This document shows positions 1 to 5,615 of a stretch of 5,615 bases of DNA, in pieces. The notes under the pieces are model-generated. The model saw only the letters and a program-made list of their open reading frames with translations, ran no database searches and was not told the DNA's origin. A program made the translations under genes and the position numbers. Each line of letters opens with the position of its first letter. Positions within the stretch are counted from its first letter, which is position 1. The stretch is from a virus (Duplodnaviria; Heunggongvirae; Uroviricota; Caudoviricetes). Where the stretch lies: positions 1-5,615 of the IMG/VR virus record IMGVR_UViG_2606217104_000006, one strand, 5' to 3'.

Positions 1-589
1 CGAGCTGTACCGGGATGGCCGGATAACGGAAGCCGCCTGTTGGGCTCACGCCCGCCGTAAAATCCACGATGTGCACGTTCGCACCCCGTCAGCCCTGACG
101 GAGGAAGCGCTGAAACGGATCGGCGAACTGTACGCCATCGAGGCAGAGATAAGGGGAATGACGGCGGAGCAGCGCCTTGCCGAACGTCAGTTGAAAACGA
201 AACCGCTGCTGAAATCCCTGGAAAGCTGGCTGCGTGAAAAGATGAAAACCCTGTCGCGACACTCAGAACTGGCGAAAGCGTTCGCATACGCCCTGAACCA
301 GTGGCCGGCGCTGACGTACTATGCGAACGATGGCTGGGCTGAGGCGGACAATAACATCGCTGAAAATGCGTTGCGGATGGTCAGTCTGGGCCGCAAAAAC
401 TACCTGTTCTTCGGTTCGGATCATGGAGGAGAGCGGGGAGCGCTGCTGTACAGCCTGATCGGGACGTGCAAACTGAACGGAGTGGAGCCAGAAAGCTACC
501 TCCGCTATGTCCTTGACGTCATAGCCGACTGGCCGATAAACCGGGTCGGCGAACTGCTCCCCTGGCGCGTAGCACTGCCGACTGAATAA
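1..589 (+). CDS. IS66-family transposase (TnpC/orf3 type), C-terminal ~195 codons; 5' end lies upstream of the window
   Basis: Open frame enters from the window edge (codon phase from nt 2) and ends at TAA 587-589. The translation contains [12 protein letters not shown] and [71 protein letters not shown], which I recognise as the conserved C-terminal region of IS66-family transposases. Family knowledge only, no search run. Confidence 0.88.
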
Positions 590-626
590 CACATCCCCGT
601 CAATACGGTTCTTGCTGCACGCTTAC
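1..626 (+). mobile_element. Right-hand end of an IS66-family insertion sequence (partial; the rest of the element is upstream of the window)
   Basis: The transposase stop at 589 is followed 37 bp later by a sequence whose reverse complement reads GTAAGCGTGCAGCAAGAACC (nt 626 back to 607). From memory this matches the GTAAGCG-type terminal inverted repeat of IS66-family elements. Immediately after nt 626 the sequence becomes phage tape-measure coding sequence. Confidence 0.75.
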
Positions 627-2079
627 GGCTGAGGCGGGTTCGGTGATCACCCAGTTCAGCCAGGCGCTGGCACAGGGTGTGTTGCGCGGTGAGGAATTTA
701 ATTCGGTCAATGAAAGTGGTGACCGGATCATTCGTGCACTGGCTGCAGGCATGGGCGTGGCCCGTAAAGATCTGAAGGCGATGGCGGACGATGGTCAACT
801 GACGGCGGATAAAGTCGTTCCTGCGTTAATCAGCCAGCTGGAGGTATTGCGTGATGAATACGCGGCCATGCCGGAAACGGTCTCTGACGGGATCACAAAG
901 GTGGAAAACGCCTTTATGGCCTGGGTGGGTGGTGCGAATGAGGCCAGCGGGGTGACGAAAACGCTCTCCGGCGTGCTGAACGGTGTTGCCGGACAGATTG
1001 ATAATGTGGCAACAGCCGTGGGGGCACTGGTTGCCGTCGGGGTTGCCCGGTACTTTGGCAATATGGCCTCCGGAGCGATGTCTGCCACGGCAGGACTTGT
1101 GACGGCTGCACGTAATGAAGTTGCACTGGCGGAAGCACAGTTCAGGGGAACGCAGATTGCCACGGCGCGGGCAAGGGCAGCCGTGTACCGTGCTCAGCAG
1201 GCCGTGGCGGCAGCCCGCGGGACGGAGATGCAGATTGCTGCAGAGGCCCGTCTGGCGGCCACACAGGAACGCCTGAACAGAAATATTGCTGCCAGAAGCG
1301 CCGCCCAGAATGCGCTGAACAGTACAACGGCGGTGGGCTCACGTCTGATGAGCGGTGCGCTGGGGCTGGTTGGTGGCGTACCCGGACTGGTGATGCTGGG
1401 GGCTGCAGCATGGTACACGCTGTACCAGAATCAGGAGCAGGCCAGGGAGTCTGCGCGCCAGTATGCACTGACGATAGATGAAATCGCGCATAAAACGCCG
1501 TCAATGTCTCTGCCTGAAGCCTCAGATAATGAAGGACGAACACGGGCGGCGCTGACAGAGCAGAACCGGCTGATTGATGAACAGGCCAGTCGGGTGAAAT
1601 CCCTGCAGGAAAAAATCGCAGGATATCAGTATGTTCTGGCGAACCCGGGCTGGACGACCGGTGACGGATTCATGATAAACCATCTGACATCGGTGAAGAC
1701 CGTAAATGCCCGTTTTCTGGATGCGGTGAATTTTGTGGCGGGCAATCCGGAAGCGGACCCGGAGCAGGAGCTGAGCGACCGCTGGGTGGTGGAGCAGATG
1801 TCAGAGCTGACGGCCATGACAGCCTCGTTTGTGCTGGCAACACCGACGGAGACGGACGGAGCGCTGTTTCCCGGTCGCATTATGCTGGCGAATACCTGTA
1901 TGTGGACCTACCGCTCTGATGAGTGTGGTTACACGGGCGGGGCTGTGGCGGATGAGTTCGATAAACCCACCACCGATATCCGTAAGGACAGATGCAGCAA
2001 GTGCATGCGCGGGTGTGAGATGCGCGGCATGGTGGCTAATTTTGGCGGTTTCCTTTCCATTAACAAACTTTCGCAGTAA
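627..2079 (+). pseudogene. Chimeric tail-gene remnant: tail tape-measure protein N-terminal fragment fused in frame to the C-terminal cysteine-rich domain of minor tail protein L (gpL-like); 5' end interrupted by the IS66 element
   Basis: Continuous ORF (ORF track 643-2079; coding phase is already open from nt 628). The N-terminal part (FSQALAQGVLRGEEFNSVNE...KDLKAMADDGQLTADKVVPALISQLE) resembles the conserved tape-measure N-terminal domain, followed by an Ala-rich coiled-coil region and a hydrophobic Gly-rich segment (LMSGALGLVGGVPGLVMLGAAAWY) typical of tape-measure proteins. From at least nt 1708 (ARFLDAVNFVAGNPEADPEQE...GRIMLANTCMWTYRSDECGY...DRCSKCMRGCEMRGMVANFGGFLSINKLSQ) it matches the C-terminal half of lambda gpL as I recall it, including the conserved Cys cluster. 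The junction lies roughly between nt 1560 and 1700 and cannot be placed exactly by eye. Confidence 0.75.
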
Positions 2080-2087
2080 TGGATTAT

Positions 2088-2112
2088 GCCCACCATCAGG
2101 TGGGTTTTTTGT
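2088..2112 (+). terminator. Rho-independent terminator downstream of the L remnant
   Basis: GC-rich inverted repeat CCCACC (2089-2094) / GGTGGG (2099-2104) with a 4-nt loop ATCA, followed by TTTTTT (2105-2110). The stop codon of the minus-strand Mnt-like gene (TCA at 2096-2098 on plus, read as TGA on minus) lies in the loop. Confidence 0.7.
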
Positions 2113-2470
2113 TGTCATCACCAAGATATTTCTGCTTATATTCCTCTGAAAGAGGAATTGATCTTTCAACCATGCTAATAAGTTTATCTACTTGTTTTTT
2201 CTGTTTTTCTATGATTTCTAAAAGTTGAGGTATAAGTTTTTCATGCTCGCTTTTATCATATTTTCTGTTTATCGCATCTAGTTGTTCTTTAAACTGCTGA
2301 ACGATAGGACCATCCTCCGGCCCAAAATCACGACAAACACGAATCGCCAACTCAAGCAGAGTGACAATCTCAGCATTCATAGAACGATTATTTTGTTTTG
2401 ATGACGCTTCAATTATTTTTTTTAATTCAACAGGAAGCCTAATCCGAAGTTGAGGGTCTTCTCTACTCAT
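2096..2470 (-). CDS. Mnt-like ribbon-helix-helix (Arc/MetJ superfamily) transcriptional repressor with an extended C-terminal coiled-coil region (124 aa)
   Basis: ORF track 2096-2470 minus. The N-terminus MSREDPQLRIRLPVELKKIIEASSKQNNRSMNAEIVTLLELAI has the beta-strand and two-helix pattern, including the N(G/N)RSMN(S/A)E motif, that I recall from P22 Mnt and Arc. The C-terminal half is charged and heptad-like (QQFKEQLDAINRKYDKSEHEKLIPQLLEIIEKQKKQVDKLISMVE), consistent with an oligomerisation coiled coil as in Mnt. It is transcribed divergently from the Arc-like/Ant-like genes. The Shine-Dalgarno is weak. Confidence 0.8.
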   Translation of the reverse strand: MSREDPQLRIRLPVELKKIIEASSKQNNRSMNAEIVTLLELAIRVCRDFGPEDGPIVQQFKEQLDAINRKYDKSEHEKLIPQLLEIIEKQKKQVDKLISMVERSIPLSEEYKQKYLGDDNKKPT

Positions 2471-2507
2471 ACCATTAGTCCAAACAGGAAAAATTCACAA
2501 TAAGTAA

Positions 2508-2536
2508 ATTATGCCCCACGGTGGGGTTGACTTCAA
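2508..2536 (-). promoter_or_regulatory. Predicted sigma70 promoter for the Mnt-like gene (Pmnt-like), arranged back-to-back with the plus-strand promoter
   Basis: On the minus strand: -35 TTGAAG (plus coordinates 2536-2531), 17-bp spacer, -10 CATAAT (plus coordinates 2513-2508). Its -35 overlaps the -35 of the plus-strand promoter by 2 bp, and the 13-bp palindrome 2514-2526 sits in its spacer. Confidence 0.45.
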
Positions 2537-2555
2537 TGACGCACGGTGTGACAAT
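2527..2555 (+). promoter_or_regulatory. Predicted sigma70 promoter for the Arc-like/Ant-like operon (Pant-like)
   Basis: -35 TTGACT (2527-2532), 17-bp spacer, -10 GACAAT (2550-2555) preceded by TG at 2547-2548 (extended -10). The predicted start near 2562 leaves a ~32-nt leader before the AAGGAG Shine-Dalgarno (2583-2588) and ATG 2594. Confidence 0.5.
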
Positions 2556-2593
2556 TTTGATTGCCCCACAGTGAGGCTATTTAAGGAGTGGAG

Positions 2594-2761
2594 ATGGAAA
2601 AAGCAAAAGACATGTATCAACGCAAGGTTCGTTTCCCAGAGGATGTAAGGAAGGCGATTGAAAGAAATGGAGAAAAAGAGTGTCGACAGTTCAACACGGA
2701 ACTTATTTATCAATTGAGAAAAGTGTACGGACTGATTGGAGAGAAGAATGCTAGGACATAA
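2594..2761 (+). CDS. Arc-like ribbon-helix-helix repressor (55 aa); not in the supplied ORF track, presumably below its length cutoff
   Basis: ATG 2594 is preceded by a strong Shine-Dalgarno AAGGAG (2583-2588, 5-nt spacing); TAA at 2759-2761. Translation: MEKAKDMYQRKVRFPEDVRKAIERNGEKECRQFNTELIYQLRKVYGLIGEKNART. The RKVRFPEDV strand followed by two short helices parallels P22 Arc (FNLRWPREV...NGRSVNSEIYQRV, recalled from memory). Small size and position immediately upstream of an antirepressor gene both fit. Confidence 0.7.
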   Translation: MEKAKDMYQRKVRFPEDVRKAIERNGEKECRQFNTELIYQLRKVYGLIGEKNART

Positions 2762-2830
2762 AAATAGCGAAGCCCGACAGTGCGCGAACACAAATCGGGC
2801 TTCTATGTCAGTAACTTCCAAGGAACTAAC
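2762..2830 (-). ncRNA. Predicted sar-like antisense RNA (~68 nt) complementary to the Arc-like/Ant-like intercistronic region and the Ant-like ribosome-binding site
   Basis: Minus-strand promoter with near-consensus elements inside the 5' end of the Ant-like gene (see next feature) predicts a start near nt 2830. A 9-bp perfect stem (2769-2777 / 2795-2803, 17-nt loop) is followed on the minus strand by GCUAUUUUUAU (plus 2768-2759), a plausible intrinsic terminator ending just after the Arc-like stop codon. The transcript would be antisense to the Ant-like Shine-Dalgarno (2819-2825). Confidence 0.4.
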
Positions 2831-2833
2831 GAA

Positions 2834-3754
2834 ATGAGTATAGCAACAGCGGTATCTACTATCAACGTGCCATTCCACGGCGCAGAGCTTTATGTCGTCA
2901 ATCACAACGGCGAACCGTACACCCCAATGAAACCTATCGTTGAGGGAATGGGTATGGATTGGGCTTCACAGTTTACAAAGTTAAAACAAAGATTTGCTAA
3001 AGGTATTGTGGAAATCGCAATACCTTCAGTTGGCGGTATGCAGACCATGATTTGCCTTGCTTTGCGTAAACTGAATGGTTGGCTCCAAACCATCAGTCCT
3101 AACAAAGTCCGCCCTGAAATCCGCGAGAAGGTAATCCAGTATCAGGAAGAGTGTGACGATGTGCTCTACGAGTACTGGACTAAAGGCCATGTGATTAACC
3201 CGCGCAAAGCTAAAAAGGCATTGCTGGGGAAAATCACCACTGAACAGCAGGAAGCCATTAAACAACTCGTCATGAGTCGCGGTCAGTCTCTGCCAAAAGA
3301 AAAACAGGCGAAGGCGATGATCACCATGTGGTCGTCACTGAAATCCCATTTTGGATGTTCGTACAAAGAAATTAGTGAGGAGCAGTTTACCGAAGCACTG
3401 TCACTTGCTGCTCGCGTTCCGCTTGAAGGTGAGTTCATTGGCAAACAAGAGAAGAAAACCAACGAGCTTTCTGCAAAAGAAGCAAACAGCCTTGTATGGT
3501 TATGGGATTATGCTAACCGCTCACAGGCATTATTCCGCGAACTGTATCCGGCGCTAAAGCAAATTCAATCGAACTATTCCTGCAGATGCTACGACTACGG
3601 TCATGAGTTCTCGTATGTTATTGGAATGGCGAGAGACGTTTTAATCAATCACACGCGAGATATTGATATTAATGAGCCAGACGGACCAACGAATCTTTCT
3701 GCATGGCTAAGACTTAAGAACAAAGAATTACCTCCTTCACTGCATCACTACTAA
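2834..3754 (+). CDS. Phage antirepressor (P22 Ant-like; P22 antirepressor N-terminal-type domain)
   Basis: ORF track 2780-3754, but the start is more likely ATG 2834, preceded by AAGGAAC (2819-2825); the GTG at 2780 lies inside a hairpin loop and has no Shine-Dalgarno. TAA at 3752-3754. The N-terminal region VPFHGAELYVVNHNGEPYTPMKPIVEGMGMDW...RPEIREKVIQYQEECDDVLYEYW matches my recollection of the N-terminal domain of P22-type antirepressors. It sits downstream of an Arc-like gene, as ant does in P22 immI. Confidence 0.72.
   Translation: MSIATAVSTINVPFHGAELYVVNHNGEPYTPMKPIVEGMGMDWASQFTKLKQRFAKGIVEIAIPSVGGMQTMICLALRKLNGWLQTISPNKVRPEIREKVIQYQEECDDVLYEYWTKGHVINPRKAKKALLGKITTEQQEAIKQLVMSRGQSLPKEKQAKAMITMWSSLKSHFGCSYKEISEEQFTEALSLAARVPLEGEFIGKQEKKTNELSAKEANSLVWLWDYANRSQALFRELYPALKQIQSNYSCRCYDYGHEFSYVIGMARDVLINHTRDIDINEPDGPTNLSAWLRLKNKELPPSLHHY
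2837..2865 (-). promoter_or_regulatory. Predicted promoter of the sar-like antisense RNA, located within the first codons of the Ant-like gene
   Basis: Minus-strand -35 TTGATA (plus 2865-2860), exactly 17-bp spacer, -10 TATACT (plus 2842-2837). Both hexamers are 5/6 matches to consensus. Confidence 0.5.
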
Positions 3755-3772
3755 CAGATTGCCAACGAAATG

Positions 3773-3796
3773 ACCCAGCTTCGGCTGGGTTTTTTA
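3773..3796 (+). terminator. Rho-independent terminator downstream of the Ant-like gene
   Basis: 7-bp stem ACCCAGC (3773-3779) / GCTGGGT (3784-3790) with a UUCG tetraloop (3780-3783), followed by TTTTT (3791-3795). Confidence 0.8.
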
Positions 3797-3808
3797 TCAG
3801 GAGTTCTC

Positions 3809-4546
3809 ATGCTCTATAGCAATATATTGGCGCACGCCCGGCGATGTGCGCCAGCGGAGTCGTGCGGCTTCGTGGTGAGAACGCCGGAGGGGGAAAGATA
3901 TTTTCCCTGCGTGAATATCTCCGGTGAGCCGGAGGATTATTTCCGGATGGCTCCGGAGGACTGGCTGCAGGCCAAAATGCAGGGTGAGATTGTGGCGCTG
4001 GTCCACAGCCACCCCGGTGGCCTGCCCTGGCTGAGCGAGGCCGACCGGCGGCTGCAGATAAAAAGTGCACTGTCCTGGTGGCTGGTCTGCCGGGGGGACA
4101 TTCATAAATTCCGCTGTGTGCCACATCTGACAGGACGGCGCTTTGAGCACGGGGTGACGGACTGTTACACGCTGTTCCGGGATGCCTACCATCTGGCGGG
4201 AATTGATATGCCGGATTTTGAGCGTGAGGATGACTGGTGGCGCAACGGTCAGAACCTTTACCTGGACAATATGGCGGTCACCGGCTTTTACCGGGTGCCC
4301 CTGTCCTCTGCACAGGCGGGCGATATCCTGCTGTGCTGCTTTGGCGCATCGGTGGCCAATCATGCCGCCATTTACTGCGGCAACGGTGAACTGCTTCACC
4401 ATCTGCCTGAACAACTGAGTAAACGGGAGAGGTATTCCGAAAAATGGCAACGACGAACGCATTCTGTCTGGCGTCACCGCCACTGGCACGCATCTGCCTT
4501 CACGGGGATTTACAACGATTTGGCCGCCGCCTCAGCCTGTACGTGA
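3809..4546 (+). CDS. K: Tail tip assembly protein K (lambda gpK-like; JAB/MPN plus NlpC/P60 domains)
   Basis: ATG 3809 with AGGAG (3799-3803) 5 nt upstream. The ORF-track start at 3770 would place the first 13 codons inside the preceding terminator hairpin, so it is rejected. The translation contains the JAMM-type motif VHSHPGGLPWLSEADR and an NlpC/P60-like Cys/His pair (GVTDCYTLF ... NHAAIYCG), and is collinear with lambda K as I recall it (ILAHARRCAPAESCGFVV...). Confidence 0.88.
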   Translation: MLYSNILAHARRCAPAESCGFVVRTPEGERYFPCVNISGEPEDYFRMAPEDWLQAKMQGEIVALVHSHPGGLPWLSEADRRLQIKSALSWWLVCRGDIHKFRCVPHLTGRRFEHGVTDCYTLFRDAYHLAGIDMPDFEREDDWWRNGQNLYLDNMAVTGFYRVPLSSAQAGDILLCCFGASVANHAAIYCGNGELLHHLPEQLSKRERYSEKWQRRTHSVWRHRHWHASAFTGIYNDLAAASACT

Positions 4547-5124
4547 ACACGGCAGCGGAAGCCATCCGGGCGCTGTCGTTACAGGTGCCGGGATTCCGCC
4601 GTCAGATGAACGAAGGCTGGTACCAGATACGTATTCGCGGTGAGGACACGGCACCGGAGGCGGTGTACGCCCGTCTTCACGAACCTCTGGGTGAGGGGGC
4701 GGTCATCCATATTGTGCCGCGACTGGCCGGAGCCGGAAAGGGCGGACTGCGGATTGTGCTGGGGGCGGCAGCCATCGTGGGCTCTTTCTTCACTGCCGGA
4801 GGCTCGATGGCGTTATGGGGTACAGCCCTGAGTGCCGGTGGTTTTTCTGCCACCACGATGCTGTTTTCACTGGGTGCCAGCATGATTCTGGGTGGTGTGG
4901 CCCAGATGCTGGCACCGAAGGCAAAAACACCGGATTACCGCGCAACGGATAACGGTAAACAGAACACGTATTTTTCGTCACTGGACAATATGATTGCCCA
5001 GGGTAACCCGATGCCGGTGCCTTACGGGGAAATGCTGGTTGGTTCACGACGGATATCCCAGGACATCAGCACCCGTGATGAAGGCGGGGGCGGAAAGGTC
5101 GTGGTTATCGGGCGGCAGGGGTAA
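4444..5124 (+). CDS. I: Tail tip assembly protein I (lambda gpI-like)
   Basis: ATG 4444, TAA 5122-5124. The translation (ASPPLARICLHGDLQRFGRR...VIHIVPRLAGAGKGG...GASMILGGVAQMLAPKAKTP...GKQNTYFSSLDNMIAQGNPMPVPYGEM) closely parallels lambda gpI as I recall it. Its 5' end overlaps the 3' end of K by 103 bp in a different frame; I recall a K/I overlap of about this size in lambda. Confidence 0.9.
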   Translation: MATTNAFCLASPPLARICLHGDLQRFGRRLSLYVNTAAEAIRALSLQVPGFRRQMNEGWYQIRIRGEDTAPEAVYARLHEPLGEGAVIHIVPRLAGAGKGGLRIVLGAAAIVGSFFTAGGSMALWGTALSAGGFSATTMLFSLGASMILGGVAQMLAPKAKTPDYRATDNGKQNTYFSSLDNMIAQGNPMPVPYGEMLVGSRRISQDISTRDEGGGGKVVVIGRQG

Positions 5125-5155
5125 AAAGAATAAAAAAATCCCGCAGAGTTGCGGA
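5125..5155 (-). terminator. Possible minus-strand intrinsic terminator in the I-J spacer
   Basis: Short GC-rich stem CCGCA (5141-5145) / TGCGG (5150-5154) with loop GAGT. On the minus strand it is followed by a run of 7 U (plus-strand A-run 5132-5138) and further U-rich sequence. The stem is only 5 bp, so this is tentative. Confidence 0.35.
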
Positions 5156-5294
5156 ACTGAGGGAGCGTTACGAAGATTAAGTGTAAGGAATTATTCTTAT
5201 GTCACGACAAAAAACATTAACGCAGAGAAATTATTAGCACCACAGTCAGTTTGTAAAAATGTGAAGATATTCAGAAGTTTTATTCAGTGATGAT

Positions 5295-5326
5295 ACAGGC
5301 ATCCTCAGGGATGCCTGTTGTTTTTG
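5295..5326 (+). terminator. Strong rho-independent terminator 34 bp upstream of the J start codon
   Basis: Perfect 10-bp stem ACAGGCATCC (5295-5304) / GGATGCCTGT (5309-5318) with loop TCAG, followed by TGTTTTT (5319-5325). Confidence 0.7.
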
Positions 5327-5359
5327 TGCGTAACAGTTATCACAGTAAAGGGTGAGACA

Positions 5360-5615
5360 ATGGGCAAAGGTGGCGGCAAGGCGCACACACCGCGCGAGGC
5401 GAAGGACAATCTCAAATCCACGCAGATGATGAGTGTGATTGATGCGATTGGTGAGGGACCGATAGAAGGCCCGGTGAAAGGCCTGCAGAGTATTCTGGTG
5501 AACAAAACCCCGCTGACGGACACGGACGGTAATCCCGTGATACACGGTGTGACGGCGGTCTGGCGCGCCGGGGAGCAGGAGCAGACACCACCGGAAGGCT
5601 TTGAGTCCTCCGGAG
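5360..5615 (+). CDS. J: Host specificity / tail tip central fibre protein J (lambda gpJ-like), N-terminal 85 codons; continues beyond the window
   Basis: ATG 5360 preceded by AAAGGGTGAG. Translation MGKGGGKAHTPREAKDNLKSTQMMSVIDAIGEGPIEGPVKGLQSILVNKTPLTDTDGNPVIHGVTAVWRAGEQEQTPPEGFESSG closely matches the N-terminus of lambda J as I recall it (MGKG..KGHTPREAKDNLKSTQ...GPIEGPV...RAGEQEQTPPEGFESSG). Open to the window end. Confidence 0.92.
   Translation, partial: MGKGGGKAHTPREAKDNLKSTQMMSVIDAIGEGPIEGPVKGLQSILVNKTPLTDTDGNPVIHGVTAVWRAGEQEQTPPEGFESSG

What the first reader, a model, noticed from the sequence alone, without database searches (positions are those of the whole stretch)
627..2079. In-frame chimera of tape-measure N-terminus and gpL C-terminal cysteine-rich domain
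A single 478-codon ORF begins as a tape-measure protein (conserved N-terminal domain, Ala-rich coiled coil, hydrophobic Gly-rich segment) and ends as the C-terminal half of minor tail protein L, including its Cys cluster (NTC...DEC...DRCSKC...RGC), which in lambda gpL coordinates an iron-sulfur cluster. This implies a deletion that removed the distal tape measure, gene M and the 5' half of L while preserving the reading frame. The junction is somewhere between about nt 1560 and 1700. It marks the prophage as cryptic, and a stable fusion protein could even be made if the gene is transcribed.
Basis: partly seen in the sequence, partly recalled or inferred. Interest (0 to 1): 0.45.

Follow-up and report, generated by a model that had tools for sequence, protein, structure and literature searches.

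The report
Deletion-made tape-measure/gpL fusion pseudogene
A 2,319-base deletion in a decaying lambda-like prophage of one E. coli strain joined the middle of the tail tape-measure gene, in frame, to the second half of tail-tip gene L; this is ordinary prophage decay, not a new kind of protein.

Summary
ORF 643-2079 (478 codons) consists of tape-measure (TMP) codons 174-527, one hybrid Asn codon, and gene L codons 110-232. The L part includes the complete Fe-S domain, with Cys at the lambda gpL ligand positions 173/182/205/212.

The breakpoint lies exactly between nt 1705 and 1706. Five intact relatives, including Sakai Sp6 and Stx2 phage 1717, all show the same missing segment: 2,319 bp (773 codons). 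It covers TMP codons 528-1080, all of gene M and L codons 1-108. The junction has no microhomology.

One correction. The ORF does not start at the TMP N-terminus. An ISEc22 (IS66 family) end at nt 626 cuts off TMP codons 1-168. The "start" is an internal GTG (Val174) with a chance GAGG 8 nt upstream.

The window is a whole draft contig, JNME01000105.1, of E. coli 3-267-03_S1_C3. A separately assembled sibling colony (S1_C1) carries the identical junction, so an assembly artefact is unlikely. The fusion occurs nowhere else in 5,426 complete E. coli genomes, 5.8 billion proteins, or the genome, metagenome and viral collections searched.

Verdict: a private, non-functional remnant that marks a tail-defective prophage. 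Interest is low.

The parts
1..626 (+). Right end of an ISEc22 copy (IS66 family). It holds the 3' part of the transposase gene (to nt 589) and the terminal inverted repeat, which ends ...CGCTTAC at 626.
   Evidence: Pfam DDE_Tnp_IS66 and IS66_C. About 99% identity to annotated ISEc22 copies. Flanks of independent copies diverge immediately after CGCTTAC.
627..1705 (+). Tape-measure gene fragment, nt 504-1582 of a 3,243-nt gene (codons 169-527 of 1080).
   Evidence: 99.2% identical to Stx2 phage 1717 TMP and 96-97% to O157/O55 prophage TMPs, ungapped.
631..634 (+). GAGG, a chance Shine-Dalgarno-like motif 8 nt upstream of the internal GTG used as the ORF start.
   Evidence: Read directly from the sequence. 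In intact phages this is internal TMP coding sequence.
643..2079 (+). Fused ORF of 478 codons: TMP 174-527, Asn355, L 110-232. GenBank annotates it as 'phage minor tail protein L' (KDT54032.1).
1342..1422 (+). Hydrophobic Gly-rich segment of the TMP part (residues 234-260).
   Evidence: Kyte-Doolittle maximum of 1.7. The segment is identical in the intact TMP.
1705..1707 (+). Deletion junction. The hybrid codon A|AT (Asn355) takes its first base from TMP codon 528 (ACG) and its last two from L codon 109 (TAT).
   Evidence: Base-by-base comparison with five parents. 2,319 bp is missing and there is zero microhomology.
1706..2079 (+). Gene L fragment, nt 326-699 (codons 109-232). It holds the last third of the HDI beta-sandwich and the whole Fe-S domain.
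   Evidence: 98.3% identical to the L gene of the DEC4E prophage. Aligns to lambda gpL 106-232 in PDB 8IYK. Domain limits are taken from PMC10721106.
1897..2016 (+). Cysteine cluster: Cys419, 428, 451, 454 and 458, equivalent to lambda gpL Cys173, 182, 205, 208 and 212.
   Evidence: The [4Fe-4S] ligands in lambda are Cys173/182/205/212 (PMC10721106).
2088..2105 (+). Terminator-like hairpin followed by a T-run just after the fused ORF. It is inherited from the L/Arc intergenic region.
   Evidence: The region aligns with intact relatives up to nt 2113.

Best explanation
The ORF is a pseudogene remnant left by two independent lesions in the tail operon of a lambda-like prophage of the HK97/Stx-phage-1717 tail type, in E. 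coli 3-267-03_S1. (1) An illegitimate, homology-independent deletion of 2,319 bp joined TMP nt 1582 to gene L nt 326. It removed TMP residues 528-1080, including the C-terminal part that anchors in the tail tip, all of gene M (the distal tail protein), and the first 108 residues of L. The deletion is a multiple of three and both genes enter the junction at compatible codon phases, so a continuous frame results. (2) An ISEc22 element lies at TMP nt 503/504 and separates or removes the first 168 codons. The prophage therefore lacks an intact tape measure, M and L and cannot build tails. The fused ORF most likely has no function. If it is transcribed at all, that would be by read-through from the co-oriented IS transposase gene. 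Shown here: the anatomy, the breakpoints, the size of the deletion, reproducibility in a second assembly, and uniqueness. Inferred: the mechanism of the deletion, and the lack of expression and function.
For: Collinear high-identity flanks and an identical 2,319-bp gap against five intact relatives. Protein alignments place TMP 174-527 and L 110-232. Pfam shows three truncated domains, while the intact TMP has TMP_3 at 83-272, HK97_TLTM at 395-686 and Tape_meas_lam_C at 862-933. Intact relatives have the gene order TMP-M-L-Arc-Arc-Ant-K-I-J. There is no in-register microhomology: the longest shared word within 40 nt either side of the two breakpoints is a 7-mer, and it is out of register. The contig of sibling colony S1_C1 is 100% identical over window 1240-4838, which includes the junction. 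The fusion was found only in these two isolates. The IS end was defined at nt 626. No sigma-70-like promoter lies on the + strand between nt 400 and the ORF start.
Against: There is no read-level or long-read confirmation. Both assemblies are short draft contigs of one clone and were probably made with the same pipeline. The two flanks have different closest relatives: the TMP part matches phage 1717 at 99.2% but the L part matches it at only 93.9%, whereas the L part matches the DEC4E prophage at 98.3%. The parent was therefore mosaic, or the join formed between two elements. Expression was not tested. A GAGG-N8-GTG start and the absence of any terminator-like hairpin between the transposase stop and the ORF leave translation possible.
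Confidence: 0.88

Rival explanations
1. Assembly artefact: the contig is a chimeric join of TMP and L reads, and the real genome has intact genes.
For: The window is a 5.6-kb draft contig bounded by repeats, an IS on the left and the start of J on the right. The 3' 780 bases differ from the sibling contig, which shows that repeat-path ambiguity exists in this region.
Against: The same junction, with 3.6 kb of identical surrounding sequence, was assembled independently from a second colony. The junction has no shared k-mer that could mislead an assembler.
Confidence: 0.04
2. The join arose by illegitimate recombination between two different co-resident lambdoid prophages, not by a simple deletion within one element.
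For: The closest relatives differ for the two flanks. Genomes in this collection that match the window carry a median of 4 and up to 36 matching places, so related prophages are often multiple.
Against: Lambdoid prophages are routinely mosaic, so differing nearest relatives are expected. All parents give the same 2,319-bp interval and the downstream gene order is unbroken. An exchange between two prophages would also rearrange the chromosome.
Confidence: 0.06
3. The fused ORF is an expressed protein with a function of its own, for example a membrane-associated Fe-S protein or a dominant-negative inhibitor of tail assembly in other lambdoid phages.
For: The frame is open for 478 codons, with GAGG 8 nt before the GTG. 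The complete Fe-S domain and the hydrophobic TMP segment are retained. The IS transposase gene is co-oriented, and no terminator-like hairpin lies between it and the ORF.
Against: The fusion is confined to one clone, with no spread or conservation. The break falls inside the L HDI beta-sandwich (residues 1-166) and inside two TMP domains, so misfolding is likely. No promoter-like site was found. One random deletion in three is in frame.
Confidence: 0.03
4. It is a naturally longer member of the L family with an N-terminal extension.
For: GenBank names it 'phage minor tail protein L'.
Against: Residues 1-354 are 97% identical to an internal stretch of a 1080-aa TMP. The L N-terminal 108 residues are absent. 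No other such architecture exists in the protein database.
Confidence: 0.005

Closest known systems
Tail operon of Stx2-converting phage 1717 (NC_011357; gp67 TMP, gp68 M-like, gp69 L-like) and of O157:H7 Sakai prophage Sp6
   Same: Same gene order: TMP, M, L, Arc/Ant module, K, I, J. The TMP part is 99.2% identical to phage 1717 and 96.8% to Sp6. The L part is 93.9% identical to phage 1717 and 94.6% to Sp6.
   Different: The window lacks 2,319 bp spanning TMP codons 528-1080, all of M and L codons 1-108. It also has an ISEc22 end at TMP nt 503/504.
Bacteriophage lambda gpL (PDB 8IYK; [4Fe-4S] tail-tip hub protein)
   Same: Fusion residues 352-478 align to gpL 106-232 (E 7e-61), with all four cluster-ligand cysteines conserved.
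   Different: The first about 108 residues of the HDI beta-sandwich, which forms the last tail ring together with gpJ, are missing and are replaced by TMP sequence.
IS-disrupted or truncated tape-measure genes in other defective E. coli and Shigella prophages, for example ISEc22 inside a TMP gene in strain Res13-Lact-PEB17-18
   Same: Prophage decay by IS insertion into the long TMP gene. Many truncated TMPs are present in the databases.
   Different: In that strain both TMP halves, M and L are still present. Here an additional internal deletion created a fusion of two genes.

Membership tests
Phage tail tape measure protein (HK97/lambda-like; Pfam TMP_3 + Phage_HK97_TLTM + Tape_meas_lam_C) | Complete N-terminal TMP_3 domain | tested here: not met
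   Only profile positions 94-191 of 192 are matched. The intact relative matches positions 2-191.
Phage tail tape measure protein (HK97/lambda-like; Pfam TMP_3 + Phage_HK97_TLTM + Tape_meas_lam_C) | Full central TLTM region and the C-terminal domain that docks in the tail tip | tested here: not met
   HK97_TLTM matches profile positions 1-130 of 295 only, and Tape_meas_lam_C is absent. TMP residues 528-1080 are deleted.
Phage tail tape measure protein (HK97/lambda-like; Pfam TMP_3 + Phage_HK97_TLTM + Tape_meas_lam_C) | Descent from a TMP gene (near-identity to bona fide TMP genes) | tested here: met
   99.2% nucleotide identity over 1,079 nt to the phage 1717 TMP.
Minor tail / tail tip protein L (Pfam PF05100; lambda gpL) | N-terminal HDI beta-sandwich domain (lambda residues 1-166) | tested here: not met
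   Only residues equivalent to 110-166 remain. Domain limits are from PMC10721106.
Minor tail / tail tip protein L (Pfam PF05100; lambda gpL) | C-terminal Fe-S domain with four ligand cysteines (173, 182, 205, 212) | tested here: met
   Cys419/428/451/458 align to these positions. Actual cluster binding was not tested.
Minor tail / tail tip protein L (Pfam PF05100; lambda gpL) | Position between gene M and gene K in the tail operon | tested here: not met
   Gene M is absent. K follows after the Arc/Ant module, as in the relatives.
Deletion-derived gene fusion in a defective prophage | Both flanks collinear with adjacent parts of intact relatives, with a defined missing segment | tested here: met
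   2,319 bp is missing relative to five relatives.
Deletion-derived gene fusion in a defective prophage | Junction real in the genome (independent sequence support) | tested here: met
   The junction is identical in the assembly of sibling colony S1_C1. Read-level support cannot be tested here.
IS66-family insertion sequence ISEc22 | IS66-type transposase and a terminal inverted repeat beginning GTAAGCG | tested here: met
   Pfam DDE_Tnp_IS66 and IS66_C. The element ends ...CGCTTAC at 626 and is about 99% identical to annotated ISEc22.
IS66-family insertion sequence ISEc22 | 8-bp target-site duplication, which would show a simple insertion | not testable with these tools
   The left end of the IS lies outside the contig.

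The most novel reading that the evidence does not exclude
The fused ORF is translated from GTG 643 by read-through from the IS transposase gene. The product, a TMP hydrophobic segment joined to a gpL Fe-S domain, is stable and acts as a dominant-negative decoy. It would interfere with tail-tip assembly of co-resident or superinfecting lambdoid phages, so a decay product would have been co-opted for phage exclusion.
Probability: 0.02. Interest if true: 0.45.

Novelty: new member of a known kind. Interest (0 to 1): 0.1.

Why it matters
It matters little beyond annotation. The GenBank entry KDT54032.1, named 'phage minor tail protein L', is really a TMP-L fusion pseudogene and should not be used as a family member or in domain-architecture surveys. 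The locus is a clean, precisely mapped example of homology-independent deletion combined with IS insertion inactivating the tail module of a lambdoid, Stx-phage-like prophage. The junction could serve as a clone-specific marker.

Tried and rejected
- **Microhomology or direct repeats at the breakpoints.** None is in register. The only shared word within 40 nt on either side is an out-of-register 7-mer, CGGTGAA, so slipped-strand or short-homology deletion is not supported.
- **The junction elsewhere.** There were no spanning matches in 5,426 complete E. coli genomes, in 50,697 phage records, in GTDB species-representative genomes or in JGI metagenomes. The single IMG/VR hit is the sibling contig itself.
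- **A promoter for the ORF.** No sigma-70-like site lies upstream on the + strand.
- **Position of the IS end.** I first suspected it might be at about 632, because many BLAST hits extend that far. Comparing independent copies shows it ends at 626. The extension comes from similar target sequences of the GCTGA type.
- **Origin of the isolates.** The literature search did not link the strain name to a study. The only full-text hit is an unrelated CDI paper. The volunteer-challenge paper I recalled does not evidently list this subject, so I make no claim about it.
- **Simple IS insertion versus IS-mediated deletion.** I could not tell whether TMP codons 1-168 survive on the other side of the IS, because the contig ends inside the IS.

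Full report
**What the window is.** The 5,615 bases are the complete draft contig JNME01000105.1 of Escherichia coli 3-267-03_S1_C3, assembly GCA_000700085.1. From left to right it contains:
- the 3' part of an IS66-family transposase gene and the IS end (1-626);
- the ORF in question (643-2079);
- an Arc-family gene on the minus strand (2096-2470);
- a small Arc-like ORF (2594-2761);
- a P22-type antirepressor gene (2834-3754);
- a gpK-like JAB/NlpC-P60 peptidase gene (3809-4546);
- a gpI-like gene (4543-5124);
- the start of a J-like gene (5360 to the contig end).

**Checking the observation.** The 478-codon ORF exists. Pfam finds three partial domains in one polypeptide:

| Pfam family | Residues in the ORF | Profile positions matched |
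|---|---|---|
| TMP_3 | 2-99 | 94-191 of 192 |
| Phage_HK97_TLTM | 222-352 | 1-130 of 295 |
| Phage_tail_L | 351-476 | 77-206 of 206 |

By comparison, an intact 1080-aa tape measure from Stx2 phage 1717 has TMP_3 at 83-272, HK97_TLTM at 395-686 and Tape_meas_lam_C at 862-933. An intact 232-aa L protein matches the whole L profile.

BLASTP places ORF residues 1-354 on TMP residues 174-527 at 97% identity. It places ORF residues 352-478 on L residues 106-232 at 95% identity, with true homology starting at residue 356, equivalent to L residue 110.

Against solved structures, residues 352-478 align to lambda gpL 106-232 in PDB 8IYK, E 7e-61. The five cysteines (419, 428, 451, 454, 458) correspond to gpL 173, 182, 205, 208 and 212. 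In the lambda tail-tip cryo-EM structure, Cys173, 182, 205 and 212 surround the iron-sulfur cluster, the iron-binding domain is residues 154-232, and the N-terminal HDI beta-sandwich is residues 1-166 (PMC10721106).

**The breakpoint.** I compared the window by BLASTN with five intact relatives:
- O55:H7 USDA5905 (L001);
- O157:H7 strain 4276 (L002);
- Sakai prophage Sp6 (L005);
- O157:H7 DEC4E (L007);
- Stx2-converting phage 1717 (L012).

Against the four E. coli relatives, window 627-1705 aligns without gaps to TMP nt 504-1582 at 96-97% identity, and window 1706 onward aligns to gene L from nt 326 at 89-98%. Phage 1717 shows the same two blocks, but its TMP alignment starts at window 624 (see "The left edge"), at 99.2% for the TMP part and 93.9% for the L part. 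Exactly 2,319 bp of the relative lies between the two blocks in every case.

2,319 is 773 codons. TMP contributes the first base of its codon 528 and L contributes the last two bases of its codon 109. Together they make a hybrid AAT (Asn355) and a continuous frame.

The junction reads ...GGTGAAGACCGTAA|ATGCCCGTTTTCTGG.... In the parents the base after the TMP breakpoint is C and the base before the L breakpoint is T, so there is no microhomology at all. The longest word shared by the 40 nt either side of the two breakpoints is a 7-mer that is out of register. This points to homology-independent (illegitimate) deletion, not slippage between direct repeats.

The deleted segment holds TMP residues 528-1080, the whole M gene (342 nt) and L residues 1-108, judged from the annotated relatives.

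**The left edge.** Sequence 1-626 is about 99% identical to annotated ISEc22 elements. Independent copies in other contexts all end ...CGCTTAC and diverge immediately afterwards. So the tape-measure portion is not the N-terminus. Codons 1-168 are cut off by the IS, and the ORF "start" is an internal Val174 GTG. It happens to be preceded by GAGG at a spacing of 8 nt.

Because the contig ends inside the IS, I cannot tell whether the upstream TMP part still exists on the other side.

**Real or artefact.** A contig from a second colony of the same sample, 3-267-03_S1_C1 (JNMP01000111.1, also held in IMG/VR), is 100% identical to window 1240-4838 and so contains the same junction. A zero-homology join is also not what a k-mer assembler produces by mistake. 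I rate the artefact reading at about 4%. Read mapping would settle it.

**Distribution.**
- No complete E. coli genome out of 5,426 has a match spanning the junction, although 1,866 carry one or both halves.
- No phage record spans it.
- The 28-mer across the junction is absent from the species-representative genomes and from the metagenome contigs.
- In the 5.8-billion-protein search, the only listed hits that combine PF06120 with PF05100 are this protein and the two annotations of the sibling contig.

The fusion is a private mutation of one clone.

**Function.** An intact lambda-like tail needs a full tape measure, whose C-terminus sits in the tip, plus the gpM ring and the gpL HDI domain that forms the last ring with gpJ (PMC10721106). 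All three are missing or truncated here, so the prophage cannot make tails. This last step is inferred from established lambda biology.

The break lies inside the L beta-sandwich and inside two TMP domains, so a well-folded product is unlikely, although the Fe-S domain itself is complete.

No sigma-70-like promoter lies on the + strand upstream. The only plausible route to transcription is read-through from the co-oriented transposase gene, since no terminator-like hairpin intervenes. One random deletion in three is in frame, so the open frame needs no selective explanation.

**Verdict.** It is a routine example of prophage decay, mis-annotated in GenBank as 'phage minor tail protein L'. It is of low general interest.

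Noticed in passing
window 2096-3754: A low-GC (35-47%) module sits between tail genes L and K and resembles the P22 immI region. It has an Arc-family gene on the minus strand (2096-2470), a small Arc-like ORF (2594-2761) and a P22-type antirepressor Ant (2834-3754). Overlapping divergent promoter-like sites lie at 2527-2555 (+) and 2536-2508 (-). Intact relatives, including Sakai Sp6 and phage 1717, carry such a module, but the 2113-2837 stretch here is a different allele. It matched only at about 92%, in strains CFSAN018748 and Res13-Lact-PEA14-20.
   Followed up: partly
window 4839-5615 versus L004 3600-4378: The sibling-colony contig is identical to the window up to nt 4838, then shows 108 differences through the end of gene I, the I-J spacer and the start of J. 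Either the assemblers took different paths through a repeat shared by several prophages, or the colonies really differ. Linkage of the last 780 bases of the window is therefore uncertain.
   Followed up: partly
window 620-634; L008, L009, L010: Independent ISEc22 copies are flanked by similar sequences next to the right end (GGCTGAGG, TGCTGATG, GCTGATTC, GGTTCAGG), which hints at a target preference. A different ISEc22 copy splits the tape-measure gene of another prophage in strain Res13-Lact-PEB17-18, where both gene halves are still present.
   Followed up: partly
window 627-2113: The two flanks of the deletion have different nearest relatives. The TMP part is 99.2% identical to Stx2 phage 1717. 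The L part is only 93.9% identical to phage 1717 but 98.3% identical to a DEC4E prophage. This indicates a mosaic parental prophage.
   Followed up: partly
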